The notes below the pieces were generated by a model. That model was not told where the DNA came from. It saw nothing but the letters and a program-made list of their open reading frames with translations, and made no database searches. DNA of 64,000 nt from a virus (Duplodnaviria; Caudoviricetes). Below, one piece after another: positions 4,784 through 35,112 of this stretch (the first letter of the stretch is position 1; the number at the start of each line of letters is the position of its first letter). The DNA lies in IMG/VR virus record IMGVR_UViG_2522572099_000001, positions 1 through 64,000 of that record. One strand, 5' to 3'. The translations under genes and the position numbers were made by a program.

Positions 4784-4812
4784 ATTTTCTCTCCGTGGTA
4801 AGGGTTTGGAAT

Positions 4813-5466
4813 TCATGCCGCCGGCAGCAGCGAGACGAATGCCTCTCGCCGACGTGCAAGCTCCTTCTCGCCGGCGGGACCATCCCGCTTGGCAAGTTCT
4901 TCGAGGTGGCAGATGCCTGTCTCGACAGAATGTTCGACCTCGGCGCGCGACGCGCCTCTGCCGCTGGCGAACCAGAGAACTTCGACCGGATTGCCGATGC
5001 GGAAAAGTATCCCTGGCTGCCCGGCATGCGGCCGGAAGCGCGTGTAGGACTTCGTCACCCAAACGCCTACGGCGCCGGGGTTGCGCTTGATGCCGAAGCC
5101 CGCCGCGTCGCTGCGTTCATCCGGTAAGTCGCGCGCGTTTCGCTTCGCCAGCGGATTAGCCATGAAGGGACAGTTCTTGGCCGCGAAGATGGCGCAGTCG
5201 CGATGCGATGGCGGGTCGGAGATCGTCCTATTGATCCCGCACATCGGGCCAATGACAAACGCCATGTAGGCTCCCATGTGCTGCCCGCAGATCCAGCAGA
5301 GTTTGCAACGGACGGCCTCTGCCATCTTCTCGGATGTGATCACGCGGAAATCGGGCTTGCCGTCGATCCACGTCGCAAAGAAGGGGACCGGATAGCCCTT
5401 GTCGCTGACGGGCAATGATTTCATCCGATCCGGCACCGCTTCAAAAACGCGATTGATGGCGTTCAT
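4813..5466 (-). CDS. Conserved hypothetical protein with Cys/His motifs
   Basis: CWICG and HRDC..CPF motifs; first gene after the operator at 5511. Confidence 0.7.
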   Translation of the reverse strand: MNAINRVFEAVPDRMKSLPVSDKGYPVPFFATWIDGKPDFRVITSEKMAEAVRCKLCWICGQHMGAYMAFVIGPMCGINRTISDPPSHRDCAIFAAKNCPFMANPLAKRNARDLPDERSDAAGFGIKRNPGAVGVWVTKSYTRFRPHAGQPGILFRIGNPVEVLWFASGRGASRAEVEHSVETGICHLEELAKRDGPAGEKELARRREAFVSLLPAA

Positions 5467-5510
5467 CGCTCGTCTCCCTGGTTCTGCTCGTGTGCAGTCG
5501 ACAAAACATC

Positions 5511-5527
5511 GTAACCATTTTGGTTAC
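5511..5527. promoter_or_regulatory. Palindromic operator GTAACCATTTTGGTTAC
   Basis: Perfect copy of the genome-wide palindrome, in an intergenic gap. Confidence 0.85.
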
Positions 5528-5590
5528 ACCGTAGTCAAGCGGAAATCGTTCCTGGCGCTGTATTTTCGGTGGAAGTATTCCGGGTGCGCG

Positions 5591-5848
5591 TCACCACAGA
5601 TCCTCCGAATAGAGGTCAGGCGCGGCGATAAGCTTCTCGACCTGGCCGGCGGCAAGAGCCAGCACGGCAGCATCGCGGCGGTTCACATAGCGCCCTGCAC
5701 TGGTCAGGAAGCCTTGGCGGTCGCCGCGCACGATGAGCGGGTTGAAGTCGAGGAGCTTGCGCAGCACATCGCCATGCCTTGCCGGTGCCGGAAGGCTTGC
5801 AATGATGCCGAAAGACGAGATTGCAACCGAAATGATGCGCTCTGTCAC
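5591..5848 (-). CDS. Conserved small phage protein
   Basis: RH..QGFLTSAGRYVNR..LYSEDLW motif. Confidence 0.75.
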   Translation of the reverse strand: MTERIISVAISSFGIIASLPAPARHGDVLRKLLDFNPLIVRGDRQGFLTSAGRYVNRRDAAVLALAAGQVEKLIAAPDLYSEDLW

Positions 5849-6222
5849 TTGGTCTCCCCCTCATGTGTAGAGGTGGAGACGGGCTCACAGACTGGCGTGT
5901 TGGCGTACTTCAGCAGCACATCGGCATGGCAAAACTGCCCGAGACGGCACCAGCACGCCAAGTTCTTGCCGCGCAACGGTGACAGATCGGGAAGCTTGCC
6001 CGCGCGAGCGTCGGCGGCGAATTCCTCTGCCGCCTGCTCTTGCGCCCATCTCTTGCGTTCATCGGCGTACCAAAGAATGCTTTTAAGACTGTTAGACGCG
6101 TCCAGCCAATCTCGCCAATAGTGCGGATTGCCGTACTTCGTGGTGCGATCGACCTTCACAGTGTTCTCTGGCATGCGCCAGCCGGCCTTGCGCGAAAGCT
6201 GAACTCGAATAGGGGCGCTCAC
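5845..6222 (-). CDS. DUF4326 family protein
   Basis: VDRTTKYGNP and LRGKNLACWC..CHADVLL motifs. Confidence 0.88.
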   Translation of the reverse strand: MSAPIRVQLSRKAGWRMPENTVKVDRTTKYGNPHYWRDWLDASNSLKSILWYADERKRWAQEQAAEEFAADARAGKLPDLSPLRGKNLACWCRLGQFCHADVLLKYANTPVCEPVSTSTHEGETK

Positions 6223-6716
6223 GCCCGTTCCTCCACATCCTGAGAGATTGAGCGGGAGGCGGCGCGAAGATCGCCCATCGTGACGCGCACAGGCTTGGAT
6301 GGGTGCTGGTCGTGACCGAAAGCCATCCGACCGTCGGTCATCACCACTTGCTCATCTGGCATGACCAAGCTGGCAATCTCTGCGTCAGTCAGGTCAGCGC
6401 TTTCCTCTGGTTGAAGCCGGCGCTGGCCTTCCGCCGCAAGCCGATCGGATGCTCGCGCCAAGACAGCGAAAGGCTCCAGCGCTTTCTTTACGCGCGCCAG
6501 TTCGGATTCGGCGGCGGCTAGGCGATCTTTCTCTTCCCGGGCAACAGCCACATAGCGCTCGACATTCTCAAGCGCCTCCGCCAGTTCCGCCCTTATCTCC
6601 GATAGGGCTGTATCCTTGGAGGCGAGGGAGTCGGCGGAGATGACCTCGTAGCCTTCGAACACCAATTGCATGTAGGCATCATCACCAATAATCTGGCGTG
6701 GCGTGCGGTCGGCCAT
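6219..6716 (-). CDS. Hypothetical coiled-coil protein
   Basis: Coupled ORF in the early operon. Confidence 0.6.
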   Translation of the reverse strand: MADRTPRQIIGDDAYMQLVFEGYEVISADSLASKDTALSEIRAELAEALENVERYVAVAREEKDRLAAAESELARVKKALEPFAVLARASDRLAAEGQRRLQPEESADLTDAEIASLVMPDEQVVMTDGRMAFGHDQHPSKPVRVTMGDLRAASRSISQDVEERA

Positions 6717-7106
6717 TTATCTGGCCTCGTTAGAAGCTGAGTTGATCTGGTCAAGCCACAGAGAAAGCGAGTGGTGCCACTGATCGACTGGCTCATGTCC
6801 ACATGACATCGGTTCGGGGTGACCGGCCATGTCGTCGCCACAACAACAAACGCCGCTGTTAACTGGCGCCGATTTCACAAACTCGATGAAATCGCGCGGC
6901 ACCAGCACCATGCCAGGTACTCCATCCCCTGATGGTGCGGTGGAGAGGGCTGCTTCAAGGGCGGCTCGCATGTGACGCCTGATGCTGGCGAGGTCCGAAT
7001 CTGCGAAGTGCTGCGGCCAATGGTCGGGCCAATAGCCACGACAGGCCCGCTCGACCATCGCTTCGCTGACTTCCGTAGTGGTGGCTGTGGGTTGGGTGGG
7101 GGTCAT
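6717..7106 (-). CDS. Hypothetical protein
   Basis: Coupled ORF; EAMVERA..MRAALEAAL phage motif. Confidence 0.6.
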   Translation of the reverse strand: MTPTQPTATTTEVSEAMVERACRGYWPDHWPQHFADSDLASIRRHMRAALEAALSTAPSGDGVPGMVLVPRDFIEFVKSAPVNSGVCCCGDDMAGHPEPMSCGHEPVDQWHHSLSLWLDQINSASNEAR

Positions 7107-7453
7107 GCTGCACCGCCTTTTGCCCACGAGGGGCAGTCACAGGAGATATGCAGCATCGCTGTCTTCTCACGGTATTCGAGCAGGAAATTGAACATGGTGA
7201 GGAAGTTAGGACAGTTGGGGCGCAGCCAAGCGCCGCTTGGGCCGAAGGCCAGATCGACAACCCGCTGCTCTCGCGGCAAGCCCGCCAGTCCGCGCTGCAT
7301 GGCGGCAATTTCTTCGGCCGACACGTAAAGCCGCCCTCTGGCGTCGATCTCCTCGAACCAAGCCTTCTCGCGCTCAACTTGCTCCGGCGTCTGCCTGACG
7401 TTCTTGCTGGTGACGACGGGGAATGGTGCGGAGCGGGTCATTTTGTCCTCCAA
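7103..7453 (-). CDS. Hypothetical protein divergent from the RHH gene
   Basis: ORF coupled to the downstream gene; start probably near 7441. Confidence 0.55.
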   Translation of the reverse strand: MEDKMTRSAPFPVVTSKNVRQTPEQVEREKAWFEEIDARGRLYVSAEEIAAMQRGLAGLPREQRVVDLAFGPSGAWLRPNCPNFLTMFNFLLEYREKTAMLHISCDCPSWAKGGAA

Positions 7454-7561
7454 TGTAGTTTCAGAGGTTGAACATATAGCCGATATCGGATAAGGTCAAT
7501 AAGTGATATCGCTTTGGAGGCCGAATTGACAGAATTACCGATAGCGCATATTCCGGCACGC

Positions 7562-7729
7562 ATGGGACGCCCATCAATGAACGTGAAGCCGATTCTCGTG
7601 CGCCTGCCGGAAGGCACCGCAGAGAAGATCGATGAGATTGCGGGCAAGAACCGCCGCGCCGAATTTATCCGCGAGGCCATCGAGCGCGAGATCAAGCGCC
7701 GCTCCCGGCAATCGAAGGAAAGCGAATAG
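7562..7729 (+). CDS. Ribbon-helix-helix (CopG/Arc-like) regulator
   Basis: MGRPS..ILVRLPEG..IDEIAG..RAEFIREAIEREI pattern. Confidence 0.8.
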   Translation: MGRPSMNVKPILVRLPEGTAEKIDEIAGKNRRAEFIREAIEREIKRRSRQSKESE

Positions 7730-7730
7730 C

Positions 7731-8291
7731 TCATGGCTTCACCACCCCGTCCGTATCTTGGGCGGAAAGGGCGGCACGAAGGGCCTTGATCTCGTCGGCA
7801 GCTTTCAGAACCACGTCTTTGTCGAGGTGGTCCCAAAGATTGCCGGCGGAATAATTCGCCCCCATGGCGCGCAGCAGATATTCCTGCGTCTCGCGCTTCG
7901 GCGGCTCAGTCCCCCCACCCTTGGTGGCCGGGATGATAGAAGAGAGGATGCGAGCGTTGAAATCAGATTGGGCGACGGACTTGGCGGCTTCTAGACCACC
8001 GTGGACTTCGCGGCCCGACAGCGAGCCCCAAGACCAATAGCCGTACCCGGCCAGTTCCCAAGCCCAATACTCCATGGGAACCACATGCGCTATGTGGATC
8101 GTGCCATCCGCATTGCGGGCCGTCCATTGCAAGTCCTTCACGCTCACCGCTACCGGTGCGACAGCTGGGGGAGCGATAGGAGCGGGAGCGATAGGCTCGT
8201 CGCGGTAGCGATCGCTGTACTGTGGTGGCGGGTCGCAGTTGCGCATATCGCCACAGCATGGGTTGAGCTTGCAAGTGAACGAACTGCCCAT
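7731..8291 (-). CDS. Hypothetical protein
   Basis: Coupled ORF. Confidence 0.6.
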   Translation of the reverse strand: MGSSFTCKLNPCCGDMRNCDPPPQYSDRYRDEPIAPAPIAPPAVAPVAVSVKDLQWTARNADGTIHIAHVVPMEYWAWELAGYGYWSWGSLSGREVHGGLEAAKSVAQSDFNARILSSIIPATKGGGTEPPKRETQEYLLRAMGANYSAGNLWDHLDKDVVLKAADEIKALRAALSAQDTDGVVKP

Positions 8292-15984: not shown

Positions 15985-16581
15985 TTAGAGTGTGGATATC
16001 CTCAATCGGGCACGGCCGACGATGCTGAGGTCGCTCGGCTTGACGGTTTCGTTGGGGATGCTCGGGTTCTCGCCATACACCTGCACCGTGCCGTGTATCG
16101 TCGGCGAGAGATAGCGCCATTGGATGACGCCGGCGATTTCGATGGCATAGAGGCCAGGCACGCTAGGCTTGTTGTCGTCGATGTCGATCACAAGCGCGTC
16201 GCCCTTGGTGACGATGGCGTTGGACTGCGATGGCTCAACCATCATAAACCGCAAATTATGCCGCCTGGCGCTGGGCAGCATGCGCGCCATGAACTCGACT
16301 TCCAGCGCCATGCCGGGCGAATCCTCTGGCGCCTCCTTGCCGTTCATGATCTCGAAAACGTTGTGGAAACGCTTCGAATCGATGCGACTCATCTCTGGGA
16401 ACATGAGATCCTGCGCCGTGCAATTGAGGTGCGGCGCGATCTTCTGAGCCCATTCGGTCGACAACTTCCGCTTACCTTCTTCGAGGCGGCCCAGCTGTTG
16501 CCGGGTGGTGCCAATGCGGCGCGACAACTCAGCCTTGCTGAGCCCGGCTTTCTCGCGGAAAAGCTTGATTCCGTTATTCAT
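15985..16581 (-). CDS. cI: CI-like repressor (XRE HTH plus degenerate S24 domain)
   Basis: HTH LSKAELSRRIGTTRQQLGRLEEG; C-terminal GDALVID..G.YAI..NP fold; divergent from cro. Confidence 0.88.
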   Translation of the reverse strand: MNNGIKLFREKAGLSKAELSRRIGTTRQQLGRLEEGKRKLSTEWAQKIAPHLNCTAQDLMFPEMSRIDSKRFHNVFEIMNGKEAPEDSPGMALEVEFMARMLPSARRHNLRFMMVEPSQSNAIVTKGDALVIDIDDNKPSVPGLYAIEIAGVIQWRYLSPTIHGTVQVYGENPSIPNETVKPSDLSIVGRARLRISTL

Positions 16582-16618
16582 GAGACGGCGGTAGCGCAAA
16601 ATTCCCCACAGCGAAACT

Positions 16619-16668
16619 GCGCCAAAGTGGTTACAACCCTTGACGTGTAACCAAAATGGTGCCAATTG
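16619..16668. promoter_or_regulatory. OR/PR: two operator variants between cI and cro
   Basis: GCGCCAAAGTGGTTAC (16619), TTGACG -35, GTAACCAAAATGGTGC (16647). Confidence 0.8.
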
Positions 16669-16674
16669 CGGATC

Positions 16675-16914
16675 ATGGAAGATATTGACCATAAGTTGAA
16701 GAGATGGCGAGTGGCGCGCGGCATGAAGCCGGTCGACGTCGCCAAGCGCATTAAGTGCAAGCGCCAGACGGTGTTTCGCTACGAGGCCGGTCGCATGCCA
16801 GACCAGCCTTTTCTGGATCGCATCGTCGTCATGAGCGACGGTGAACTGACCGCAAACGACTGGTTGGGCAAGGAGGCTGCGGATGTCGTTGCGAGACGTC
16901 AGGCTTCGGTCTGA
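16675..16914 (+). CDS. cro: Cro-like HTH regulator
   Basis: XRE HTH divergent from cI. Confidence 0.85.
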   Translation: MEDIDHKLKRWRVARGMKPVDVAKRIKCKRQTVFRYEAGRMPDQPFLDRIVVMSDGELTANDWLGKEAADVVARRQASV

Positions 16915-24737: not shown

Positions 24738-24765
24738 CCTCGGCCCCACGGAGAAAAGGCCGAGG
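24738..24765 (-). ncRNA. Candidate 3'-UTR sRNA hairpin with an anti-SAS loop (UUUUCUCCGUGG)
   Basis: 8-bp stem; 12-nt loop complementary to CCACGGAGA. Confidence 0.5.
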
Positions 24766-24772: not shown

Positions 24773-25642
24773 CTACATCAGCATCGTGCGGGCATGTGCC
24801 TGGCGCAGTTGGGATTCCATCGTGCGGATGGTCCGCGATGCTGCCGCCAGCGTGTCGGCCCATTTGTCGGCCCGGGTTGGGTCGACGGATTTCAGCGCCA
24901 CGCACTCCCCGTCCTTGAAACCGGCCGCGATCGCCGTGACGATCCGCTCGACGGTGCGCTCCATCCTGCTCATGGCGGCGATGTCGTCCTTCGACGGTTC
25001 GGGTCGATCGTCGAACATGCCACCCTGCTCGATGCGGTCGCGCACGGCTTGCGCCGCCGCCTTGACGCCCGACCAGTCTTTCAGCTTGCCGCTGGTGAAC
25101 AGCTTCACAATTGCCATCTGCTCATGCTTCGGCAGGTCGACCAGATAGTTCGCGTGCCCGAGTGGGAACTGGTTGGCGTCGACCAGGCTCTGGATGGTCT
25201 CGTCCAGATTGAGCAGCGCCGTGCGGTCGGCGATCCGCCGCGGCTGAACGCCGAGATCCTTCGCCAGTTTCTCCACGGTCCAGCCCATGTCGAGCATCGC
25301 CTTGAACGCGCGCGCCTCCTCGACAGCACGCAGATCGGCGCGCTGCAGGTTCTCAATGATCGCTTTCAGCGCCATCTCGTCGTCGCTCATGTCCTCGACC
25401 TCGCAGAGGATGGTCGGCGTCTTGCCGAGCGCGCCGTCGTCCGCAAGCAGGCAATGGGCCCGCCAGCGGCGCTCGCCGCCGACGATGATGAAATGCTCGC
25501 CGGCTGGCCTGACCGTGATGGCCTGCATGAGGCCGCGCTCGCGGATGGAATCGGCCAACTCGCGCAGCGCCTTGACCTCAAAGAGTTTCCTTGGCTGCCC
25601 CGGATTCGGGATGACCTGGGTGAGGGGGATGCGCTTTTTCAT
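24773..25642 (-). CDS. ParB/RepB/Spo0J family protein (no ParA seen)
   Basis: PNPGQPRK, GERRWRA and ENLQRADL motifs; HTH. Confidence 0.92.
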   Translation of the reverse strand: MKKRIPLTQVIPNPGQPRKLFEVKALRELADSIRERGLMQAITVRPAGEHFIIVGGERRWRAHCLLADDGALGKTPTILCEVEDMSDDEMALKAIIENLQRADLRAVEEARAFKAMLDMGWTVEKLAKDLGVQPRRIADRTALLNLDETIQSLVDANQFPLGHANYLVDLPKHEQMAIVKLFTSGKLKDWSGVKAAAQAVRDRIEQGGMFDDRPEPSKDDIAAMSRMERTVERIVTAIAAGFKDGECVALKSVDPTRADKWADTLAAASRTIRTMESQLRQAHARTMLM

Positions 25643-27342
25643 GACCGGCCCTCCGCTTTGGCAATGGCAGCGTCAATCGTTGCCTCGATGTCGGCTATGA
25701 TATGCATTTCCGCGTTGTCGCTGTCGGCGTCATGATAACTGCCAATCTTGCCGGCAACTGTGATGAGTGCCGACAGCAGATCGGGCCGCGCCTGTTCGCG
25801 CGGGATTGCCGCGCGCAGTCCGGCGAGGATGTCTCCAATGCCTTCCTGCGTCTCGTCGTCTTCAAAGCCGCTGATGAAGGACTCTGCCTGAGTCAGCGCG
25901 TCGACGGTATCGCTGGCGTGGTCTGCGACCGGTGAATCGGCGGCCACCATTTCGTCGGTATGCCAGCCGTCGTTGGTCGCGGCCATTGCTTCGCCAAGAT
26001 CACCTCCGTAGACGTCCTTGAAATCGTCTAACGTGGTGGCGAGCGTCCCGGCGTTCTCGAATGCGTAATCCCACAAGTGGGAGTCGCGCTCCTCCTCGCT
26101 CGCGAATAGGTGAAGCTCGCAAGCCCGGTCATTGTCGATTGCCAGCGCAAAGCAGCTGCTGACGATGACGGGCGCTGGCGGCTTCGGATCATATTCGCTC
26201 GGCAGGCTGTGCCCCGCCCAATCGCCGAGCTCCTCGCCGGTGTCGTCGTCGGAGGCGTCGATCACGGCCAGATCCTGGCCGCTGTCGGTGGTCGTTTCCT
26301 TGATGTCGATGTGCTCGCCGATATAGTCGGCGGTGAGGAGCTTCATGCCCTCCTCTACCGTCTCGGCCTTGACCACGACGTTCCCGTAGCAGCGGAGGTT
26401 TACGCCCATGTGGAAGTTGATGTTACGCATTGGCCTGGCCCTCCGCCTTCGCGATGGCCGCATGAAGCTTTGCCGCCAGCACCGCATAGGGCAGATGGGC
26501 GTTTTGAGGCGTGATGCTGTCGAGTGGCCAGCAACCGGCGATCTCTTTCAGAACAGCCAGCATGTCGGCGGTGACCGTCTCGACGTAAGCGACGGTGTCG
26601 CGCTGGTCCTGGTGACCGCGTTTGTCGGTCGTGCCGGCGAGGGAGCCGATCAGCCGAAGCTGGTCGACCAAGGCAGGCCCATGGGAAGGGCCGGTGACTG
26701 GCGGAAGAGGCCGTTGGCGGCTGTGCACCAACGCGACCAGGCGATCGAAATTCGCGTCCGGCATGCGGATCGCTTCGCCGACCGGGTCTGCCATGAAGGC
26801 TTCGACCTGGTCGCGATGTGAGGCGAGGGCCGATCCCCAATTGGCGTCGATCACGCCGGCGGTTAAGAGGTCGAGCTTATCGAGGCCAAGCAGGATACGA
26901 AGGGCATTATGGAAGCGGGCGGCGTTCATGCCAGTTCCCTTTCGATCTTGTCGGATAGAGGCTTGAGCACCTCGTTCCAGATCGCGTTGCAGATTTCGTT
27001 GTCGCTGTAGTCGGCCACGACGTCCCAGCCATCGTTGCCGTAGATCAGCTGGAACCAGCCCAACTTGTCGCCGGCAGCGTTGCGGATGACGATGCCGTCT
27101 TCGTCGGTCGACGCCAACGCGGCCATGATCTCGGCCTTGTCGGTCGACTTCCTCACCGGCCAGTCTTCCCCGTCGCTAACGGAGATCACATAGCCGCGCT
27201 TCAAGCAGCCATCCACCAGGGCGGTGCACATGCGGCGCTCGGCCTTCATGCGTCGAGCTAGCGCCGGGCTGTAGTTGCGGTGATCGTAGTCGGAGGCGTT
27301 CGCGATGGCTTGATCGAAGCCGGTCTTGATGGTCGTGGTCAT
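25639..27342 (-). CDS. Three hypothetical ORFs (25639-26430, 26423-26929, 26926-27342)
   Basis: Coupled; the first gene is preceded by TACCACGGAGA; ..AAIAKAEG phage motif. Confidence 0.65.
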
Positions 27343-27361
27343 GGTCTTCTCCGTGGTAGAG

Positions 27362-27529: not shown

Positions 27530-27551
27530 GGTTTTTCCTAAGTACATCAAT

Positions 27552-27580
27552 AACTTAGTACGTAACCGAAATGGTTACAA
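27552..27580 (-). promoter_or_regulatory. Promoter TTGTAA-N17-TAAGTT with a perfect operator (27562-27578)
   Basis: Near-identical to the cassettes at 32244 and 35123. Confidence 0.85.
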
Positions 27581-27626
27581 GTGGTGCCAGGAATAAAAAG
27601 CCGAATATTTTCCGCTGCTTATGTCG

Positions 27627-28223
27627 TCAGAGAACCGGCTGGAACCGGCCCTTGAGGACTTCGGCGGAGATCGAGCGCTTGTCGTCGCCGCGCTGGATCT
27701 GCGCCTGGTCCGGATTCTCCGGATCGAAGCCGATCACCTTCCAGAGATTGCCGTCGCCGTCTGGCGCCTCGGCGCCGATATAGAGGGTGACGTCCAAGGG
27801 CTCCGGCTTGGCCTGCTTGCGATATTGCGCAGGCAGCTTCGGATGCTGCCACGCACAACCCTGGTCTTCCAGGCCATATTCAAACACCTCGATGCCGAGC
27901 TGTTCCTTGAGCCACACCGAGATGTAGGCGCGGTGGCAATATTTGTTGTCCGTCGGCGCCTCGTAGCATAGCAGCGCCGCGTCCTTGCCCGCCGAGAGGT
28001 CTTCGATCTTGGCCACCACCTTGCGGGCATCGAGGCGGGCCAGTCCGTCGAAATAGAGCTGCTTGTAATCGCGGTCGCTGGCGGTGGAAAACCAAGGTCC
28101 TGGTGCGAGTTCCGCCATCTTACGGAACCCTGCCGGATATCCGCGAGGCGTGCCCCTGGAAACCCCGATTTTTTGGATCGTGGTGGGTAGGGGATGGAAC
28201 CAGCTCGAAGTGAAAATGCGCAT
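27627..28223 (-). CDS. DUF488 family protein
   Basis: IFTSSWF..GVSRGTP..LAPG..LLCYE..CHR..WL motifs. Confidence 0.8.
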   Translation of the reverse strand: MRIFTSSWFHPLPTTIQKIGVSRGTPRGYPAGFRKMAELAPGPWFSTASDRDYKQLYFDGLARLDARKVVAKIEDLSAGKDAALLCYEAPTDNKYCHRAYISVWLKEQLGIEVFEYGLEDQGCAWQHPKLPAQYRKQAKPEPLDVTLYIGAEAPDGDGNLWKVIGFDPENPDQAQIQRGDDKRSISAEVLKGRFQPVL

Positions 28224-28330
28224 CTTGTGTCTCTTTCCGTGGTAAGGGTTTGGACAGGTCAAATCATAACTTTTGAGGACTTCCGCGGCAACCAAAATGA
28301 ACCCATGTGTTGCCGTTTTGGTGCGTTGCT

Positions 28331-29561
28331 CTAGCCGTACATCTGCATTACGTATGGGTTCTCTCTTGCGCTTCCGGGCGCGATTCCGTGGTAGGTATCG
28401 AGAGGAAGGCCGGCCAGGGGCAACCCGGTCGGCCTTTGAAATCTGCGGCGCGGCAGGCTTTCGAACGTGCGCTGCTCGGGCCAGTTCATCCAGATCGAAA
28501 TCGCCTCGAAGCTGAGCCAGCGCGGCAGGCTCTTGAAGTCGCCGGTCAGCGAGCGGCCGCAGAGAAAGCCGTTGCCGGCGAACTCCGGCCCGTCGGGGAA
28601 GAACCGAAACGTCGTCTTCGCCGCCTCGCCGGTGATCCACACATCGAGATCATGCGTGAGCTCGACCCGCTCGGGGAAGGCGCAGCGCAACATGCCGCCG
28701 ATGAACTCGTCGCCGAATTTGTGCGGCGTGGCGAGGTCGAAGACGCGTCTGAGGCGGGAATCGATCATTATAAAACGCATGGCATAAGGTTCCTTTCGTG
28801 GATCCGGTTTTCGATGACGGGCGCCTTCTCGGCTTCCCAGATTTCCAACCACCAGGACGCCAGCTCGGCGTGGTAGCGATGGTCTTGCGGCCGGCGCCGC
28901 GGCATCGTCACTTCCCGCTGGATCCAGTCGAGCCTGGCCTTGACTGTGGGGAGGTAGAGCATCATCCGGAAGGCGTCCGCGAGACGCATGTCGAGGGCAT
29001 AGTTGCTGGTCGGACCGAGCGGGGAGATGTCGCAATGCCACGACGACCAAGTGTCCAGCGCGTCGTTGATGCCGGCGGTCATGACACCGCCTTCATGCCG
29101 GGATGGAACGGCTGCTCGAAAGCCATCTTCGCGAAGGCCGCGCGGATTTCCTCCGTCACGATCTCCACCGTTGGCTGGTCGCCCTTGCCGAGATATTCTT
29201 TTGCCAGCGCGTCCGCCGCGCCGACTGGACCCATGGGGCCAAGCACGGGATGATCCTTCATCTGGAAGTCGCCGCGATCCCAACTCTCGGTGACGCGACG
29301 GCGGCCAATGACAAGCGCCCTCTCCATGGTCATGTCGACGAAGATGCGCATCCCGACGGGGGGGACGAAATTGGGCACGAATGCATCCTCGTGCCAGTCA
29401 GCGTGGCGGAGGAGGTCCTTGCCGTTCCGCGACTTCACACCGAAGGGGGTAACGCCGTCTCGGCTGTTCCAAATCCATTCGATCTCGCCGGCCTCACTGG
29501 TGTACTTCATCAACGAGTAGGCTTCGGCGCTTCTGCGGGTAACTTGGCGTGTGGTGGGCAT
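28331..29561 (-). CDS. Three hypothetical ORFs (28331-28780, 28768-29082, 29079-29561)
   Basis: Coupled; the first gene has a SAS and an operator; IWNSRDGVTPF motif. Confidence 0.65.
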
Positions 29562-29589
29562 TTCGTCGGTTCTCCGTGGTATGGTTGAA

Positions 29590-29618
29590 AACGTACAGTG
29601 TAACCAAAATGGTTACAA
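29590..29618 (-). promoter_or_regulatory. Promoter TTGTAA-N17-TACGTT with a perfect operator (29600-29616)
   Basis: GTAACCAAAATGGTTAC. Confidence 0.85.
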
Positions 29619-29628
29619 TAGGGTCAAG

Positions 29629-31200
29629 CTAAAAGTGATTGCGCCTGCCGTCCTTCCAGAGCTTGACGGTGATCGTGTTGACGTAGGTTCCGACCTCGGC
29701 GAACGAGCCGGCCGGCAGATCGCGGAATTGCCCCTTCATCTTCTCGATGAGGGCGCGGAACGCGATCGCCTTCCTGGTCTCGCGGAACTCGGTCCCGGCC
29801 GACATGATCGCGGCCAGGCAGCCATCGGGCTTGAGGAAATCGAGCGCATGGACGACGTGGTCGATATCGCGCTCCAAGTCGAAGGGCGGGTTCATGACGA
29901 TGCGATCGTAGAGGCCGGTGACCGACGGGCGCAGCGACAGGAAATCGGTGGCGTAGACCTTGCGGTAGAGCCCCTGTGCCTGGAGGGCGCCGGCCAGCGC
30001 CGGCTGCAGTTCGACGCAATCGACATGGTTGTCGAAGCGATACTCTTTGCGCCAGCGCTCCATCTTGTCGGCTTGTCCGTAGCCGCAATGGTCGGAGAAA
30101 TCCTTGATGCTGGAGAGGCAGCGCCGCGCCAGATTGCCGGTGCCGGCGCTCGGCTCGAGGACTGTCAGACGTGGCTGGTCGGCCGGCTGCGTGAGCGGGA
30201 TCCCCTTCAAGATCTCGTGCGCTGCGCCGTCGGGCGTCGGGAAGAAGCCGAAGTTCCTGGCCGGCGTGGTCTTGCGGTTGCGGAACAGGTCGTCCGGCTC
30301 TTTGGTCATGCCGTCGCCGATCACTTCGCCGTAATATTCGGCCAGCATCTTGTTGACCTTCTCGACCAGGTCGTCGCGGGTAAACCACAGATGGGCGTTG
30401 CCGTTCTTATAGGCTACCACCTTGAAATAATCGCCGTGATGCTCGGATTGCTGTGGCTGATAGCCCCGACGCTCGGCTCGCACCTGGTTCTCGATGCTGT
30501 TGTACGTCGGCCTCTTGCCGTCGAGGACAGAGAACGTCCGCTCGATGTCGCGCACGGTCTCCCATGTCCCGCCCCACGATATAGTCCCGCTGTCGCGGTC
30601 AAAGGCGTAGGTCAGGATCATTCGGCTCCCGACCTTGAAACCGTCGTGCGAGCGGAACCGGCGGTCGAGATTGGAAAAGGCAGTGGCTATGCCGCGCCGG
30701 AAAATCATCTCGGACTCGCCGGCCCACTTGTCGATCGTGGCGTAGACGTTGTCGACAGTGACCGGCGGGATCCCCATGATCTCGTCGAGATTGACCAACT
30801 CCTTGCCGTCGCCGTGGCGATGATCGTAGCGCTCCGGCACCCATTTCAGCGTGTCGCACAGCTCGTCCTTGGCCTGCTTGTCCATCAGGACTTCGAGGTC
30901 CGTCATCTTGACGAGATAGTTCCAGCACGAGATGTCGATAAGGCGGATCGCCGTGCGCTTCCATTGTTCGGCTTCGGGGAGGTTGACGGCTTCGAAGAAC
31001 GCCTTGATTTCCCGGTTGTCGCGGTCGCCGTAGCGAGAGCATGCGTGTTCGCCGGCGGCGACTTTCCAGAGCGATGCAGCCTTCCTCAACTCTCCATCGC
31101 ACTGCTCAAGGGAGGCGAATGCGCCGTGATAGGCGGCCACTGCGGCATCGCGATAAGCGACGATCTGCTCGACCGTATTGCGGGGAATGAGCGCGTTCAT
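29629..31200 (-). CDS. DUF4942-domain N6-adenine methyltransferase
   Basis: YKNGNAHLWF, FFPTP, LEPSAGTG and IVMNPPF motifs. Confidence 0.88.
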   Translation of the reverse strand: MNALIPRNTVEQIVAYRDAAVAAYHGAFASLEQCDGELRKAASLWKVAAGEHACSRYGDRDNREIKAFFEAVNLPEAEQWKRTAIRLIDISCWNYLVKMTDLEVLMDKQAKDELCDTLKWVPERYDHRHGDGKELVNLDEIMGIPPVTVDNVYATIDKWAGESEMIFRRGIATAFSNLDRRFRSHDGFKVGSRMILTYAFDRDSGTISWGGTWETVRDIERTFSVLDGKRPTYNSIENQVRAERRGYQPQQSEHHGDYFKVVAYKNGNAHLWFTRDDLVEKVNKMLAEYYGEVIGDGMTKEPDDLFRNRKTTPARNFGFFPTPDGAAHEILKGIPLTQPADQPRLTVLEPSAGTGNLARRCLSSIKDFSDHCGYGQADKMERWRKEYRFDNHVDCVELQPALAGALQAQGLYRKVYATDFLSLRPSVTGLYDRIVMNPPFDLERDIDHVVHALDFLKPDGCLAAIMSAGTEFRETRKAIAFRALIEKMKGQFRDLPAGSFAEVGTYVNTITVKLWKDGRRNHF

Positions 31201-32193
31201 TCGCCACCTCGGCACCGCGATTGTCCAAGGTTCCGCAGCGCGTCGTTTCCCTTGTCGGTCGCCATAAGATATTCGTGTCGAAGCCAATGGGCGAGGCCGA
31301 GCGCTACCAAGCGCAATGCCGGTCTGCTTTTCTGCACGGCCCTCACGCCGTCAGTTGCTTCGATCAACAGCCACCATTGGGCGCGGGTTAGGTCGCTGGT
31401 TTTCATCACTTTGGTCGTCTGCATTGGTCTGGTCTCCGTGGTACGGGTTGGCGGGCGACGGGAACGACCCGCCGCCCTATCGAAAGGGTTGGTTTCAGGC
31501 CGAAGCCCTTGGCGTCATCGCCCCTCCCTCGCTCGTTTCGGTGAAATCCTCATCGTTGCGGCGAGGCCGGGAGACGCGCTCCCGGCAGGACGGACAGCGG
31601 CAGTCTTCGCTGTCATCGAAGGGGAAGGGCGAGAGGCAGTCGTCGCAGTAGGGCATCGCCAGCCTCAATCCATGTTGCAGTGAACGAGCGCGGTCGCGTA
31701 GTCGACGCCGGTTTCCTCGGCGTAGACAGCGGCCTGATCGCCGGGGCGGTTGGCGGCGAACCGCGCCTCGGGCTCGAAAGCGTTGCACATCGTCAGCAGC
31801 AGCTCAGCGTCGTGCTTGTTCTGGATGCCATGGCAGAGCACGACGTCGCAGCCGCCGACCTGGTTGGTCTTGCGATAGATCGAGTAAGGCCAGCCGGCGT
31901 CGGATTCGTGCAGGTGCTCGCCGTTGTCGCCTTCCGAGCCGATGAAAAAGCCCGGCTCGAAGCTGCCTTCTGTACGCCAATTCAAGATTGCATTGTGGGA
32001 GGCCATTTTCCTACTCCGCGAGTTCGCGGGAGGCCCGCTGCTGATAAGCGATGATGCTTGCCTCGACCGGCTGCATTTTCCATTCCGCCATGAGTTTTAT
32101 GGCGAGCGAGTGCGGCGCCGAGCCACCACCACTCGGTGTGCAGGCCAGGAGCGAGGTGAGAAGAATTTGCTTCTCGTTGTTGCTGAGGTCCAT
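31197..32193 (-). CDS. Four small hypothetical ORFs (31197-31424, 31495-31656, 31665-32006, 32011-32193)
   Basis: SAS before 31424 and 32193; RBSs present. Confidence 0.6.
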
Positions 32194-32233
32194 GTTTGGT
32201 CTCCGTGGTAGCGAATTTCTTAGTAACCACAAC

Positions 32234-32262
32234 AACTTAGCATGTAACCAATCTGGTTACAA
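32234..32262 (-). promoter_or_regulatory. Promoter TTGTAA-N17-TAAGTT with a perfect operator (32244-32260)
   Basis: GTAACCAATCTGGTTAC plus a downstream half-site. Confidence 0.85.
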
Positions 32263-32294
32263 GTAGGTGACGCTAAAAGATGAACGCCAGCTGG

Positions 32295-32651
32295 TCATGC
32301 CTTCAAGGTAGACAGCCGTGCCCGCGCCGCGTCATAGGTCGCGCGATCAATGCCGCCCTCGTGGAGCGCCCTTCGCTGGGCGGCGCGGTCGCCAAAGCCA
32401 AGCAGGTAGAGCCGGCAATCGAACGTCTTGCAGATCGCCGGCGCCCGGTCGTGGATGGTGCAGCCTGCTTTGCCGAGATAGACGCAGGCGCCGTCCGCGT
32501 TCTGGCGGACGGCAAAGCCGCTCTTGCCCGTGATCGGATTAAGGGCCGGCAGCGCATCGTAGGCCGCAACGATGTCGCCATGCTCGGGGAACAGGAAGAT
32601 CAGTTCCTTCCGGCAGCAGACGGTGCAGCCATTGCACGGTACGCTAGCCAT
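32295..32651 (-). CDS. YkgJ-like CxxCxxCC Zn/Fe-chelating protein
   Basis: CNGCTVCC..GACVYL..CTIHDRAPAICKTFDC. Confidence 0.8.
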   Translation of the reverse strand: MASVPCNGCTVCCRKELIFLFPEHGDIVAAYDALPALNPITGKSGFAVRQNADGACVYLGKAGCTIHDRAPAICKTFDCRLYLLGFGDRAAQRRALHEGGIDRATYDAARARLSTLKA

Positions 32652-33846
32652 TGGTCGCTCCCTGATGCTTGGACGCGTCCAAATGCGCAGGAGCCTCGCA
32701 AGCATCATGGCAATCGCCGTTGTTGCCGAGACATTCAGGATCGCCCTTGGGGCAGCCATCATCTTCGGCCGCTTCATCGATCTCGGCCAGGTCGATCTTG
32801 GTCTCGTTGCCGGCCTCGTCGACCATCGTGAAGACGCTCGCGGTCGAATGCGGCTTGCGAAGGACATCCCAGGCCCAGCGGGCGGCGGCTTCGGGATCGC
32901 CTTCGCCCTCGTAGTCGATCTCCCATGTGACGAGATAGCGGGGCATCACGCTGCCTCCGCGTCGGTGCCGTCGATCTCGGCGAGGAGCTTTCGGGCTGCT
33001 TCGCGCTCGCCATGATCGGCCCAGCCGCTGCGTGTGGCCATCTCGTCCACCTGGCGCAGGAGGTCGCGAAGGCGCGTCTCGAGCTCGGCGGCTTTCCAGA
33101 TCGCGCCCTCGGCGCATTCCTGGCATTCGCCGCCGAAGATCGTTTTGCCGGTCCAGTTGTCGACATGCTCGTAATCGGCGCACGATTCAGCGATAGCCTC
33201 CTCGTCGTCGTCGGCATCGCAATGGTTCGCGATATGGTTTTCCCGCATGTCGGCGCGCGCCTTTTCCTCGGCTTCCTCGTAGCTGGCGGCGCGCACCACC
33301 GTTCCGTAATTGCCCTGGTCGTCGTCGTTGTCAGCCCATTTGATGAGAACGGAATAGGTCTTGAGGTCGCTCATCAAACAGCCTCCCCATCGATCTCGAT
33401 CAACTCGTTGTTCGCGGGCTCGTCCAGTGAAACCTCGCAAAGGATCGGATCGCCGTTCGGCCACGCGCCGAGGTTCGCGGAGTTGCCGTCGATATGCTCC
33501 TTCATCATCGCGCTGGCATGCTCCTCGCTGTCTGCGCGGAACCGGATCGAGGCGAACAGCTTCACGTCGAACATGTACTCGTGCTTGCCCATCACGCACC
33601 GCCTTTCGCAAGCTGGGCGATCAGCGCATCGGCAATCCGGCACGCTTCCCGAACGCCAGCTGAGAGGTACTCGTCGCCTGTGTGGCCGTATCGGACCATG
33701 TCCGACCGGGCTCCGGACAAGGCGTGAGGGAGCGCTTTCCCCGCGAAATAGGCGCGAAGCGACATGCCGCCTTCGGAAACCGCCACTTCGCAGACCTTCA
33801 TCATCGTTGGAAATGCCGGCCCGCCGTCGTTCACTTTCTCGGTCAT
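32644..33846 (-). CDS. Four small hypothetical ORFs (32644-32946, 32946-33374, 33374-33592, 33592-33846)
   Basis: TGATG couplings; DGGPAFP..GMSLRAYFA phage motif. Confidence 0.65.
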
Positions 33847-33975
33847 CGTTTCTCTCCGTGGTAGTGGATGGTGCCAATTCGGTTGCAAATCTTTCTTGAC
33901 AGAATGCCGGGGGGGGGGAGCAGAAAACATGCAGCCTGATTCTGCTGTGCCTTCCACCTCACCCCCCGAGTCTGA

Positions 33976-34698
33976 TCAGCCAGTGATGGCGCGCGTTCCT
34001 GCGCCGTTGTTCACCGGGCGATTGAACGTTGCGCGGTCGCCGGCTGCGACGCCGGCCGCGAAGGCACCGCTGTTGCCCTTCATTCCGTGCGAATGCGAGC
34101 CGGAGCGAAGATTCATGCCGAGCTGGCCGAAGGCCCTGTTGACCAGCGCCATCTTGACGATGACCAGCGACTTGCCGCGACCGTTCGGGCGGGCCTGCTG
34201 CTCGCGTTCGTCAGCCAGGCGGTGAAGGCGCTCATTCATGCGGCTGATGCAGCCGACCATAAAACCCTTCTGGACGTCCCAAGGGCCGGCGCCGGCGCGG
34301 TTGTAGCGCTCGGTCATGAACTTGACGGTCTGGTTGCGGACGAACAGGTCGAGGCTCTCGATCAGCCAGATGGCGAACTGCCGGTCCTGCTCGGTGCCGA
34401 AGAACGTCATCGTGTCTTCCTTGCGCGAGAGCCAGACCTTGCAGTCGCAGTAGCGGCCGACTTCCAGCGCCAGATGATCCTTGATCACGTAGGTCTTGAA
34501 GTTGTCGCGCTTGACCTTCTGAGCCGCGATCGTCTCTGCGTCGAGCTCGATCTGGTCCTTGGTGAGGCCGTATTTGTCCATGAGTTCGCGGGCCTTGGCC
34601 ATTGCCTCGAAAGCCTCGGCTTCGGTGGCGCCGGCATCGGTCGTCTTGGCGAGCAAAGCCTTGATTTTCGCTGCCATCTTCTTCTGTTGAGCGGTCAT
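33976..34698 (-). CDS. DUF2786-domain protein
   Basis: KIKALLAK..EAEAFEAMAKARELMDKYGL. Confidence 0.85.
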   Translation of the reverse strand: MTAQQKKMAAKIKALLAKTTDAGATEAEAFEAMAKARELMDKYGLTKDQIELDAETIAAQKVKRDNFKTYVIKDHLALEVGRYCDCKVWLSRKEDTMTFFGTEQDRQFAIWLIESLDLFVRNQTVKFMTERYNRAGAGPWDVQKGFMVGCISRMNERLHRLADEREQQARPNGRGKSLVIVKMALVNRAFGQLGMNLRSGSHSHGMKGNSGAFAAGVAAGDRATFNRPVNNGAGTRAITG

Positions 34699-34728
34699 TT
34701 CAGGTCTCCGTGGTAGGGTTGGTTGCGC

Positions 34729-34745
34729 GTAACCATTTTGGTTAC
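34729..34745. promoter_or_regulatory. Perfect operator GTAACCATTTTGGTTAC
   Basis: Intergenic, next to the SAS at 34705. Confidence 0.85.
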
Positions 34746-34767
34746 AAAGCGGGCGAAGTAAAGGGAA

Positions 34768-35073
34768 TTATTCGGCGAAGGCCACAAAGCCAGCGTCTGC
34801 AAGCTGGCGCCAGAATTCGCGGCACTGCTCGCGGGTGAAAATGCCGCTTGGCTCGTCCTCGCACCGCCAGTTCGTGGAACGGACGATCATGTGCTCCTGG
34901 TCATCCTCCAACTCGGTGAAATACACCGCCACCAGGAAGCCATCATGTGGGGACCTGAGCTGGTGGCATGTGCCCTGGGTCTGTTTGAGACCGAAGAGGG
35001 AGCTACCGGTTCTGCGATGACGCCAGCCGCTAACCATCCGGCTATGCGCTGAGTGCTTTTGGAAATCGGTCAT
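34768..35073 (-). CDS. Hypothetical protein
   Basis: SAS and operator-promoter upstream. Confidence 0.7.
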   Translation of the reverse strand: MTDFQKHSAHSRMVSGWRHRRTGSSLFGLKQTQGTCHQLRSPHDGFLVAVYFTELEDDQEHMIVRSTNWRCEDEPSGIFTREQCREFWRQLADAGFVAFAE

Positions 35074-35112
35074 TTGTGTTTCTCCGTGGTAAGAAAGTTG
35101 TTTGATAACAAC

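What the first reader, a model, noticed from the sequence alone, without database searches (positions are those of the whole stretch)
4790..35091. Start-associated sequence TACCACGGAGA before leftward genes
Seen (as TCTCCGTGGTA on the plus strand): exact copies at 4790, 27348, 29571, 31433, 32200, 33853, 34705 and 35081, each about 5-9 nt from an ATG. A variant at 28234 shares a 19-nt match with 4792, and another lies at 28383. Conservation extends well beyond Shine-Dalgarno complementarity, and no exact copy precedes a late gene. Known: this resembles mycobacteriophage cluster K SAS elements and contains the CsrA-type CANGGA core. Inference: it is the target of a common RNA or protein regulator, or a translation enhancer.
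Basis: partly seen in the sequence, partly recalled or inferred. Interest (0 to 1): 0.72.

Follow-up and report, generated by a model that had tools for sequence, protein, structure and literature searches.

The report
Phage gene-start tag with antisense RNA
A temperate phage of soil alphaproteobacteria puts the same private sequence tag on the ribosome-binding sites of about ten early genes and also encodes one RNA hairpin whose loop is the tag's exact mirror image, which suggests that a single phage RNA controls translation of all tagged genes together.

Summary
TACCACGGAGA (minus strand) occurs 8 times against 0.02 expected, always 5-9 nt before an ATG of a leftward non-structural gene. There are two close variants and no copy in the rightward (late-gene) sense. 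The window is the first 64 kb of a 72-kb temperate phage record with integrase, CI/Cro and TerL nearest to rhizobial phages.

The tag is phage-specific. Related proviruses carry it on one strand. In the 4.8-Mb genome that holds one of them, all 6 copies lie in the prophage. Only GGAG can pair with that genome's 16S 3' end. No CsrA is encoded by the phage or by that genome.

Following a lead from an earlier scan note, I tested a hairpin just after the parB stop (24738-24765). Its loop UUUUCUCCGUGG is the reverse complement of CCACGGAGA(AAA), and a terminator-like hairpin follows. Five related proviruses keep an antisense element at the same place. It lies in two different registers (CUCCGUGG or GUGGUAGGG), and the flanking stems differ.

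Best reading (0.55): a C/A-rich-plus-SD start tag serves as the common target of a phage antisense RNA. More distant tag-bearing relatives show no such element, and no RNA data exist.

It is an analogue, not a member, of Cluster K mycobacteriophage SAS/ESAS. The scan has noted this kind of layout before on other DNA.

The parts
4790..4800 (-). Start tag (TACCACGGAGA), 6 nt before the ATG of gene 4346-4783 (Ros/MucR family, PF05443)
27348..27358 (-). Start tag, 5 nt before the ATG of gene 26926-27342 (phrog_5680), the first gene of the operon that ends with parB and the antisense hairpin
28234..28244 (-). Variant tag TACCACGGAAA, 10 nt before the ATG of gene 27627-28223 (DUF488-N3a)
28383..28393 (-). 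Variant tag TACCACGGAAT without a nearby start. It lies behind a terminator-like hairpin and is followed by a small hairpin and a 5-codon ORF. The CCCUACCAC-plus-hairpin leader is kept in G012, G013 and G009
29571..29581 (-). Start tag, 9 nt before the ATG of gene 29079-29561; operator 29600-29616 lies upstream
31433..31443 (-). Start tag, 8 nt before the ATG of gene 31197-31424; a conserved hairpin lies upstream
32200..32210 (-). Start tag, 6 nt before the ATG of gene 32011-32193; operator 32244-32260 lies upstream
33853..33863 (-). Start tag, 6 nt before the ATG of gene 33592-33846 (phrog_2201); a degenerate operator-like repeat lies upstream
34705..34715 (-). Start tag, 6 nt before the ATG of gene 33976-34698 (DUF2786/DUF7168); operator 34729-34745 lies upstream
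35081..35091 (-). Start tag, 7 nt before the ATG of gene 34768-35073; operator 35123-35139 lies upstream
5473..5483 (-). Degenerate tag AACCAGGGAGA before gene 4813-5466, behind operator 5511-5527
24738..24765 (-). Antisense ('anti-tag') hairpin in the parB 3' UTR. The stem is 24758-24765 / 24738-24745. The 12-nt loop 24746-24757, UUUUCUCCGUGG, is the reverse complement of CCACGGAGAAAA
24700..24736 (-). Terminator-like hairpin directly after the antisense hairpin: an 11-bp G+C-rich stem, loop CUGGUCC, then GUUUUCAU
   Evidence: the simple terminator scan did not list it
24773..25642 (-). ParB-like gene (ParB_N + HTH_ParB), the last gene of the operon that carries the antisense element
29600..29616 (.). 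One of 7 exact GTAACC-N5-GGTTAC palindromes (5511, 27562, 29600, 32244, 34729, 35123, 56469). They are operator-like, overlap promoter-like hexamers, and a related half-site pattern lies in the CI/Cro intergenic region (16620-16675)

Best explanation
TACCACGGAGA is the core of a phage-private 'start tag'. It is a C/A-rich element, (CC)CUACCAC, fused to a GGAG Shine-Dalgarno. It heads about ten leftward non-structural genes, and many of these are the first gene behind a repressor-type operator/promoter or behind a hairpin. The non-SD letters are conserved because the tag is a shared RNA address. The minus-strand transcript of the parB operon ends in a hairpin whose loop, UUUUCUCCGUGG, is perfectly complementary to CCACGGAGA in all 8 exact copies. 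This 3'-UTR RNA, as part of the mRNA or as a processed small RNA, would pair with the tagged ribosome-binding sites and change their translation together, most likely by blocking them once the parB operon has been transcribed. Shown here: the tag, its specificity to the phage, the complementarity, and the conservation of tag and antisense element in relatives. Inferred: that the RNA accumulates, that the two pair in the cell, and the direction of the effect (repression).
For: (1) Tag statistics and position.
(2) The tag is phage-specific. TACCACGGAR counts by strand are 6/0, 7/1, 5/0, 5/0, 0/7, 2/0, 1/0 and 0/2 in eight related proviruses, and the reversed control pattern gives 0. In genome G005 (4.8 Mb), 6 of 6 copies of the 10-mer lie in the prophage. 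There, 5 of 13 CCCTACCAC copies lie in the prophage, against 53 for the control pattern.
(3) SD pairing is not the explanation. Only GGAG pairs with the 16S 3' end of G005, at -6.6 kcal/mol.
(4) Antisense element. There is one sense-strand copy of the complement, in the 12-nt loop of a hairpin 7 nt after the parB stop, followed by a terminator-like hairpin. Loop positions have an unpaired probability of about 1.0.
(5) Conservation with change.
- G002 keeps the loop UUUCUCCGUGG on a completely different stem (CGCUGC/GCAGCG) and after a different gene.
- G012, G016, G013 and G009 instead keep GUGGUAGGGA, UUGGUAGGGA or CGUGGUAGGG, the complement of (U)CCCUACCAC(G), between a variable hairpin and the homologous terminator.
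- Two registers on one target fit RNA pairing rather than a protein's DNA site.
(6) Seed and sites agree within genomes. Sites with at least 8 Watson-Crick pairs to the genome's own seed: G000 8 of 10, against 2 of 10 and 1 of 10 for the G012 and G013 seeds; G012 10 of 10 and G013 7 of 7, against 7 of 10 and 4 of 7 for the G000 seed. CCC before TACCAC is present at 1 of 10 sites in G000 and 26 of 26 in G009+G012+G013.
(7) Duplex energies of the loop with the 8 exact tagged start regions are -16.8 to -19.7 kcal/mol. The best untagged start reaches -13.6, and it is the degenerate tag.
(8) The tag is predicted to be more open than the same region of other genes: 0.62 (n=9) against 0.44 (n=91), p=5e-4.
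Against: - The tag is wider than the antisense element. I found no antisense copy of 8 nt or more beside a terminator in G014 (91% complete), G015, G008, G010, G011, G001 or G003. Several of these are fragments, and I held only parts of G008, G010, G011, G014 and G015. So something besides this RNA must help conserve the tag.
- G002 does not fit the seed/site agreement. Its own seed reaches 6 of 8 sites, whereas a G012-type seed would reach 8 of 8. Its CC flank is conserved 10 of 10 although its seed does not cover it.
- The 'TA' of TACCAC in the window is not covered by the window's loop.
- In the linker-type modules, part of the seed is predicted to be paired (unpaired probability 0.0-0.9).
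- One reversed 9-mer somewhere in 64 kb is not rare by itself: 0.59 are expected on both strands. The weight lies on its place and its conservation.
- G012, G016 and G013 are close kin, so the counts are not independent.
- The control start sites are crude (first start of each ORF).
- No transcript, 5' end or 3' end has been seen.
Confidence: 0.55

Rival explanations
1. The tag is only a cis-acting translation cassette. An unstructured C/A-rich enhancer or standby site plus a GGAG SD gives early phage messages strong, uniform ribosome loading. The antisense copy at the operon end has another role or none.
For: The tag occurs in more distant proviruses where I found no antisense element. The tag is predicted to be open. 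C/A-rich or ACA elements just upstream of the SD are known translation enhancers (PMC3879156, search listing and abstract only). A 26-bp C/A-rich-plus-GGAGA repeat before 8 genes is reported in Citrobacter phage Mordin (PMC4611695, passage).
Against: An enhancer need not be letter-perfect. The host genome of a relative does not use it at all. This reading does not explain why an antisense element is kept at the same place in six records, in two registers and with changed stems.
Confidence: 0.2
2. The tag is the operator of an RNA-binding protein, phage-encoded (like T4 RegA) or host-encoded, that switches translation of the tagged genes.
For: An invariant single-stranded 11-14-mer at the RBS resembles a protein operator. 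Several genes shared among tag-bearing records have no known function.
Against: No CsrA family match was found in the phage, in four related proviruses or in the G005 genome. No RNA-binding domain was seen in the 20 proteins I scanned, but about 75 predicted genes were not scanned. No gene is shared by all tag-bearing records, though many records were held only in part.
Confidence: 0.13
3. The tag acts on DNA. It would be a site for a DNA-binding regulator, or a short homology 'linker' at which modules are exchanged between mosaic phages.
For: Homology between relatives often ends at the tag or the ATG, and different genes follow the same leader, as at 31433 compared with G012 and G013. Gene content is highly mosaic.
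Against: Strict strand bias, a fixed 5-9 nt distance to ATG and the embedded GGAG all point to RNA. The reverse-oriented elements share only about CCA between the two registers, which does not fit one DNA site. Recombination alone does not maintain a sequence.
Confidence: 0.07

Closest known systems
[quoted passage not shown] 2011, PMC3203893, passages read; PMC11373665 and PMC12699233, passages)
   Same: A short asymmetric repeat with an SD core, in many copies and one orientation, a few nt before mostly ATG starts. It sits on the non-structural arm only and is absent from the host genome. About half the copies lie behind an inverted-repeat promoter element. Its role is stated as unknown in 2011, 2024 and 2025. 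K1 phages also have one reverse copy. In Anaya I find it in the 10-nt loop of a hairpin.
   Different: The sequence is unrelated (GGGATAGGAGCCC against TACCACGGAGA), as are the host phylum and the phage lineage. Here there are 8-10 copies of 11-14 nt. Here the antisense element is conserved in two registers. For Cluster K my check is mixed: Amgine has the same SAS but a changed loop inside an annotated CDS.
GcvB-type small RNA silencing of C/A-rich or ACA translation enhancers just upstream of the SD (PMC3879156, search listing and abstract only; the rest recalled)
   Same: A G/U-rich seed (GUGGUAGGG in G009, G012, G013) faces a C/A-rich element directly upstream of the SD in many messages.
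   Different: GcvB is a host RNA with degenerate targets. Here the targets are letter-perfect copies in a phage, and the seed sits in an operon's 3' UTR. Nothing has been tested at the bench.
c4 antisense RNA of phages P1 and P7 (review PMC12197685, passage)
   Same: A phage-encoded antisense RNA presents its complementary letters in loops and blocks translation at a ribosome-binding site.
   Different: c4 acts on one operon (ant). Here one element would address 8-10 dispersed genes through a standardised RBS.
CsrA/RsmA binding sites (GGA in a loop; consensus recalled from memory, not from a call)
   Same: The tag contains CACGGA and overlaps the SD.
   Different: No CsrA gene was found in the phage, its relatives or a relative's host. 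The tag is predicted to be open, not in a hairpin loop.

Membership tests
Cluster K SAS/ESAS | Consensus GGGATAGGAGCCC with at most 2 mismatches (definition used in PMC3203893 and PMC12699233) | tested here: not met
   The window's repeat is TACCACGGAGA. It shares only GGAG with the SAS consensus.
Cluster K SAS/ESAS | Asymmetric repeat in one orientation, 3-9 nt before the start codon, mostly ATG | tested here: met
   10 copies in the leftward sense and 0 in the rightward sense. Spacers are 5-10 nt and all 9 starts are ATG. Across relatives, 43 of 48 sites have ATG.
Cluster K SAS/ESAS | Restricted to non-structural genes and absent from the host genome | tested here: met
   No copy precedes a rightward gene. 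In G005, 6 of 6 copies lie in the prophage. The window's own host was not available.
Cluster K SAS/ESAS | About half the copies preceded by an inverted repeat with a promoter (ESAS) | tested here: met
   An exact GTAACC-N5-GGTTAC lies within 60 nt upstream of 4 of the 8 exact copies. The repeat sequence differs from ESAS.
Plain Shine-Dalgarno site | Conservation explained by pairing with the 3' end of 16S rRNA | tested here: not met
   Only GGAG pairs with the ...GGATCACCTCCTTT end of the 16S of G005. TACCAC has no partner there.
CsrA/RsmA regulon | A CsrA-family protein (PF02599) in the phage or host | tested here: not met
   0 matches in G000 and 0 in G005, G008, G009, G010 and G012. The controls responded.
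Trans-acting antisense/small RNA with seed and terminator | Seed complementary to the targets, exposed, next to an intrinsic terminator, and conserved while the flanks vary | tested here: met
   Exposure is clear for the loop type and only partial for the linker type.
Trans-acting antisense/small RNA with seed and terminator | The RNA is made and is stable, pairing occurs in the cell, and chaperone dependence is known | not testable with these tools
   No RNA holder was listed for the stretch. There is no Rfam family for it.

The most novel reading that the evidence does not exclude
Standardising the ribosome-binding sites of early genes so that one phage antisense RNA can address them all is a general strategy of temperate phages. 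It would have arisen independently in alphaproteobacterial phages (this tag) and in Cluster K mycobacteriophages, whose SAS have been unexplained since 2011. Their single reverse SAS copy sits, in Anaya and its close kin, in a hairpin loop. The tag would be both enhancer and off-switch address, and its register could drift along the tag without loss of control.
Probability: 0.33. Interest if true: 0.85.

Novelty: new variant of a known kind. Interest (0 to 1): 0.72.

Why it matters
Start-associated sequences have been described as of unknown role since 2011; the papers I read from 2015, 2024 and 2025 still say so. This window gives a second, unrelated example in phages of alphaproteobacteria. 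It also gives a concrete partner for the tag: an antisense loop that is kept in relatives while its stem, its neighbouring gene and even its register change. That turns an open question into a simple experiment of reporter fusions with compensatory mutations. If it holds, a phage can build a translational regulon by copying one RBS. That would matter for annotating phage genomes, for reading early/late switches in prophages, and for designing orthogonal expression control.

Tried and rejected
- Megablast of 26-36 kb against named phages found no match.
- Relatives of the 240-aa DUF2786 protein in viral contigs: none confirmed.
It was useful only because 6 loci had clustered copies.
- CsrA was rejected.
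- The scan for loop plus terminator in viral contigs found G002 and two coding chance hits.
- The terminator 18-mer in viral contigs gave 8 hits: 3 real (G002, G009, G013) and 5 coding chance hits.
- The 21-mer in metagenome contigs gave 3 coding chance hits.
- blastn of the 78-nt module against phages and plasmids found nothing meaningful.
- Rfam has no family at gathering score. A sub-threshold CrfA match covers the terminator only (E 0.17, 19 bits against a gathering score of 38) and was rejected.
- Public runs: no RNA holder was listed.
- The simple promoter/terminator scan did not list the module's terminator and found no excess of E. coli-type promoters.
- 16S rRNA: besides GGAG there is only an internal 7-mer (GGTAGGG at 1412, inside the gene). 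I set it aside as a probable helix-internal coincidence.
- The reverse CCTACCAC copies in G014 (2) and G015 (1) lie in open frames without a hairpin or terminator and were rejected as antisense elements.
- A candidate loop in G008 (58455) reads as a tag for a gene on the other strand and was rejected (by eye).
- Cluster K: the anti-SAS loop idea holds for Anaya-like phages but not cleanly for Amgine and Ekdilam.
- Literature: a search for the tag letters and their complements gave 569 papers with at least one of the four strings. The 15 listed are primers or unrelated, and none concerns phage start tags. The review of phage small RNAs (PMC12197685) does not contain 'start-associated'.
- Supplementary files of the SAS papers were not opened. 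They hold the site tables of other Cluster K phages and could bear on the reverse-copy point.


Full report
WHAT THE WINDOW IS

The window is bases 1-64000 of a single 72,282-bp virus record with direct terminal repeats. Its features are those of a temperate phage of Rhizobiales-type alphaproteobacteria:
- G+C is about 62%.
- It encodes a tyrosine integrase (596-1681).
- It has a CI-like HTH gene (15985-16692, minus strand) that diverges from a Cro-like gene (16666-16914, plus strand).
- It encodes a Ros/MucR regulator.
- Its large terminase (38216-39709) has a Rhizobium phage as nearest named relative, at 61% identity.
- Leftward non-structural genes fill about 0-16.7 kb and 23.3-35.1 kb. Rightward packaging and structural genes start at 35180.

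THE OBSERVATION

TCTCCGTGGTA occurs 8 times on the plus strand, at exactly the stated places, against 0.02 expected. Read on the minus strand it is TACCACGGAGA. An ATG follows after 5-9 nt and opens a leftward ORF.
- The products include Ros/MucR, a DUF2786/DUF7168 protein, phrog_5680, phrog_2201 and several small proteins without family.
- The variants at 28234 and 28383 are real. The first shares 19 nt with the 4790 site.
- The second has no nearby start. It stands before a small hairpin and a 5-codon ORF.
- The whole record has 10 copies of TACCACGGA in the leftward sense and none in the rightward sense.

SURROUNDINGS OF THE TAG
- Four of the 8 exact copies lie 20-45 nt downstream of an exact 17-bp palindrome, GTAACC-N5-GGTTAC, that overlaps promoter-like hexamers (TTGTAA..17..TAAGTT).
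- A related pattern lies between CI and Cro. These are therefore probably repressor operators, and the tagged genes would be directly repressor-controlled. This is inference.
- Other copies follow hairpins.
- One copy (4790) lies only 29 nt behind the upstream stop.

IS IT A HOST FEATURE?

Proviruses whose terminase is 65-73% identical carry the same 10-mer on the early-gene strand. A pattern scan found further high-G+C proviruses with clusters of it.
- Counts by strand (forward/reverse) are G002 6/0, G008 7/1, G009 5/0, G010 5/0, G012 0/7, G001 2/0, G003 1/0, G011 0/2 and G004 0/0. The reversed control pattern gives 0 everywhere.
- Of the 48 TACCACGGA sites in the sequence I held, 46 have a start codon with an ORF of at least 40 codons within 2-15 nt. 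Of these, 43 are ATG, 1 is GTG and 2 are TTG. A few are probably coding chance hits.
- The flank is also conserved in relatives, giving (C)CC-TACCACGGAG.
- G005 is a 4.8-Mb genome whose title one search prints as Pseudaminobacter salicylatoxidans DSM 6986. The 10-mer occurs there 6 times, all in the prophage on contig C10, and nowhere else. The control pattern occurs 7 times.
- CCCTACCAC occurs 13 times in G005, 5 of them in the prophage, against 53 for the control.
- Two Methylobacterium genomes with more distant terminase relatives have no copy.
- The 16S rRNA of G005 ends in the canonical ...GGATCACCTCCTTT, and only GGAG of the tag can pair with it.
- No CsrA gene is found in the phage, in four relatives or in G005.

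So the tag is private to these phages. It goes beyond the SD, and it is not a CsrA site. The window's own host is unknown.

THE ANTISENSE ELEMENT

An earlier scan note on this genome (e1-6201177) pointed to a hairpin after parB. I tested it.
- On the minus strand, 7 nt after the parB stop (24773-24775), lies CCUCGGCC-UUUUCUCCGUGG-GGCCGAGG (24765-24738).
- It is followed at once by an 11-bp G+C-rich hairpin and GUUUUCAU (24736-24700).
- The 96-nt stretch folds far better than shuffles, with z = -4.6.
- The loop is the reverse complement of CCACGGAGAAAA.
- It is the only copy of the complement of CCACGGAGA in the sense of the tagged genes.
- By itself one reversed 9-mer is not rare: 0.59 are expected on both strands of the window.

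The weight comes from relatives.
- G002: an element with the loop UUUCUCCGUGG, an entirely different stem (CGCUGC/GCAGCG) and a nearly identical terminator ends the homologous operon, but behind a different gene, 3.5 kb past its parB.
- G012, G016 and G013: parB ends with the same residues as here. It is followed by a variable hairpin, then GUGGUAGGGA or UUGGUAGGGA, then the terminator.
- G009: CGUGGUAGGG stands before the same terminator, behind yet another gene.
- GUGGUAGGG is the reverse complement of CCCUACCAC, the upstream half of the tag.

Six records therefore keep an antisense element directly before the homologous terminator. It lies in two registers that overlap only on about CCA, while the flanking stems and the upstream gene change (alignment). 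That pattern fits selection on RNA-RNA complementarity and fits poorly with a DNA site for a protein.

DO SEED AND TAG AGREE WITHIN GENOMES?

Counting sites with at least 8 Watson-Crick pairs to a seed:
- Window seed on window sites: 8 of 10.
- Other seeds on window sites: G012 2 of 10, G013 1 of 10, G009 5 of 10.
- G012 and G013 seeds on their own sites: 10 of 10 and 7 of 7.
- Window-type seed on G012 and G013 sites: 7 of 10 and 4 of 7.
- G009: 5 of 5 for all five seeds.
- G002 goes the other way: its own seed reaches 6 of 8, and a G012-type seed would reach 8 of 8.

Flanks:
- CCC before TACCAC is present at 1 of 10 sites in the window and 26 of 26 in G009+G012+G013 (Fisher p = 1e-7). G012 and G013 are close kin, so these counts are not independent.
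- G002 has CCC at 5 of 10 sites and CC at 10 of 10, although its seed does not reach there.
- In the linker-type genomes the SD half varies (GGAG at 17 of 26 sites) while CCCUACCAC never does.

The agreement is real but incomplete.

ENERGETICS AND ACCESS
- The loop pairs with the 8 exact tagged start regions at -16.8 to -19.7 kcal/mol.
- In the list of 95 predicted genes, which includes three tagged ones, the best untagged start reaches -13.6. That start is the degenerate tag at 5473.
- This gap follows from the exact complementarity, so it only shows specificity within the genome.
- The tag is predicted to be more open than the same region of other genes: 0.62 (n=9) against 0.44 (n=91), Mann-Whitney p = 5e-4. 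The control starts are crude.
- In the loop-type modules, 7-8 seed letters are unpaired with probability of about 1. In the linker type, GUGG is predicted to extend the first hairpin by G-U pairs and only UAGGGA is partly free.

LIMITS
- I found no antisense copy of 8 nt or more beside a terminator in G014 (91% complete), G015, G008, G010, G011, G001 or G003.
- Several of these are fragments, and some I held only in part.
- The tag is therefore more widespread than the element I can detect. Some further constraint must act on it: an enhancer function, another factor, or a diverged antisense partner.
- No RNA data could be found (see Tried and rejected).
- Nothing shows the direction of the effect.

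MECHANISM PROPOSED

The tag is a C/A-rich element plus SD that gives early, repressor-controlled messages a uniform and open ribosome-loading site. This part is inferred from position, composition and predicted openness. The parB operon starts with a tagged gene (27348). Its 3' end, probably as a stable terminator-bearing fragment, carries the mirror of the tag and pairs with all tagged messages. That would cover the SD (window, G002) or the element just upstream of it, still within the ribosome's footprint (G009, G012, G013, G016). The effect would be a joint shut-down of the tagged genes after their first burst. The complementarity and its conservation are shown; everything after that is inferred. 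I put this at 0.55.

COMPARISON WITH WHAT IS KNOWN

The layout is that of Cluster K SAS/ESAS (Pope et al. 2011, passages).
- SAS is a 13-bp asymmetric repeat with an SD core, in 11-19 copies, 3-7 bp before mostly ATG starts.
- It is on the non-structural arm only and absent from the host. About half the copies lie behind an inverted repeat, now thought to hold promoters (PMC11373665).
- Its role is still called unknown in 2024 and 2025.
- The sequence here is different, and so are the host phylum and the phage lineage. It is an analogue, not a member.

The 2011 paper also notes one reverse-oriented SAS in each K1 phage that is not at a gene start.
- In Anaya I find this copy (1 mismatch) in a 385-nt intergenic gap near the right end, in the sense of the SAS genes. 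It forms the 10-nt loop CCUCCUAUCC of a hairpin.
- The region is conserved in 128 records.
- A consensus fold of 8 of them keeps the hairpin. Six of its 31 pairs show compensatory change, mostly in the other helices.
- In Amgine the SAS consensus is unchanged (11 exact copies), but the homologous loop reads CUUCCCUUCCC and lies in an annotated CDS.
- The parallel is therefore suggestive and not clean.

By mechanism the nearest known cases are these:
- GcvB-type silencing of C/A-rich or ACA enhancers just upstream of the SD (PMC3879156, listing and abstract only).
- The c4 antisense RNA of P1 and P7, which blocks one RBS from loops (PMC12197685, passage).
- A SAS-like 26-bp C/A-rich-plus-GGAGA repeat reported without explanation in Citrobacter phage Mordin.

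My literature searches found no paper that links start-associated sequences to an antisense RNA. These searches cover only the held library.

EARLIER SCAN NOTES

Apart from the lead on this genome, a word search shows that the scan has described start tags with mirror hairpins on other DNA. Thirty notes in at least 28 genomes hold the words, and several concern alphaproteobacterial prophages with CUACCA-like tags. These are unchecked AI notes, and I did not use them as evidence.

VERDICT

I class it as a new variant of a known kind, with interest 0.72.

Noticed in passing
L196 (Mycobacterium phage Anaya, JF704106) 34871-34883; alignment A1: The single reverse-oriented SAS of this Cluster K phage lies in a 385-nt intergenic gap. 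On the gene-sense strand it forms the 10-nt loop CCUCCUAUCC of a hairpin. The region is conserved in 128 Mycobacterium phage records. In Amgine the loop differs while the SAS does not.
   Followed up: partly
window 28330-28440 (minus strand): A conserved leader lies before the DUF488 gene: terminator-like hairpin, CCUACCAC-GGAAU, a small hairpin, AGAGAGAACCCAUACGUA, then a 5-codon ORF (ATG CAG ATG TAC GGC TAG). The same layout with CCCUACCAC is kept in G012, G013 and G009. It may be a leader peptide or a small RNA.
   Followed up: partly
window 1-60 and record 72150-72282: The terminal repeat holds a tRNA-like 5' part on the plus strand (D-arm GCTCAGTGGTAGAGC read from the minus-strand print). 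The 'direct terminal repeats' may therefore be the att core of a prophage integrated in a tRNA gene. ARAGORN lists no tRNA there.
   Followed up: no
window 5511, 27562, 29600, 32244, 34729, 35123, 56469 and 16620-16675: There are seven exact GTAACC-N5-GGTTAC palindromes overlapping promoter-like hexamers, and related half-sites between CI and Cro. One (56469) lies among rightward late genes, next to a small leftward ORF.
   Followed up: partly
window 4346-4783: The phage encodes a full-length Ros/MucR zinc-finger regulator (PF05443, E 4e-44). It carries the start tag here and also in G009 and G012.
   Followed up: no
window 31433 leader compared with G012 24248 and G013 25627: The same leader (hairpin GGGCGGCGGG..CCCGUCGCCC, tag, spacer CCAGACCA) is followed by different genes in different phages. 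Homology seems to end at the start codon, as if modules were exchanged at the tag.
   Followed up: no
window 35180-37214: A Dam-like/GNAT-like fusion (PF22555 + PF22559) and a 258-aa partner head the rightward operon. They are among the few genes shared by most tag-bearing relatives. Earlier scan notes discuss them as a DNA-modification system.
   Followed up: no
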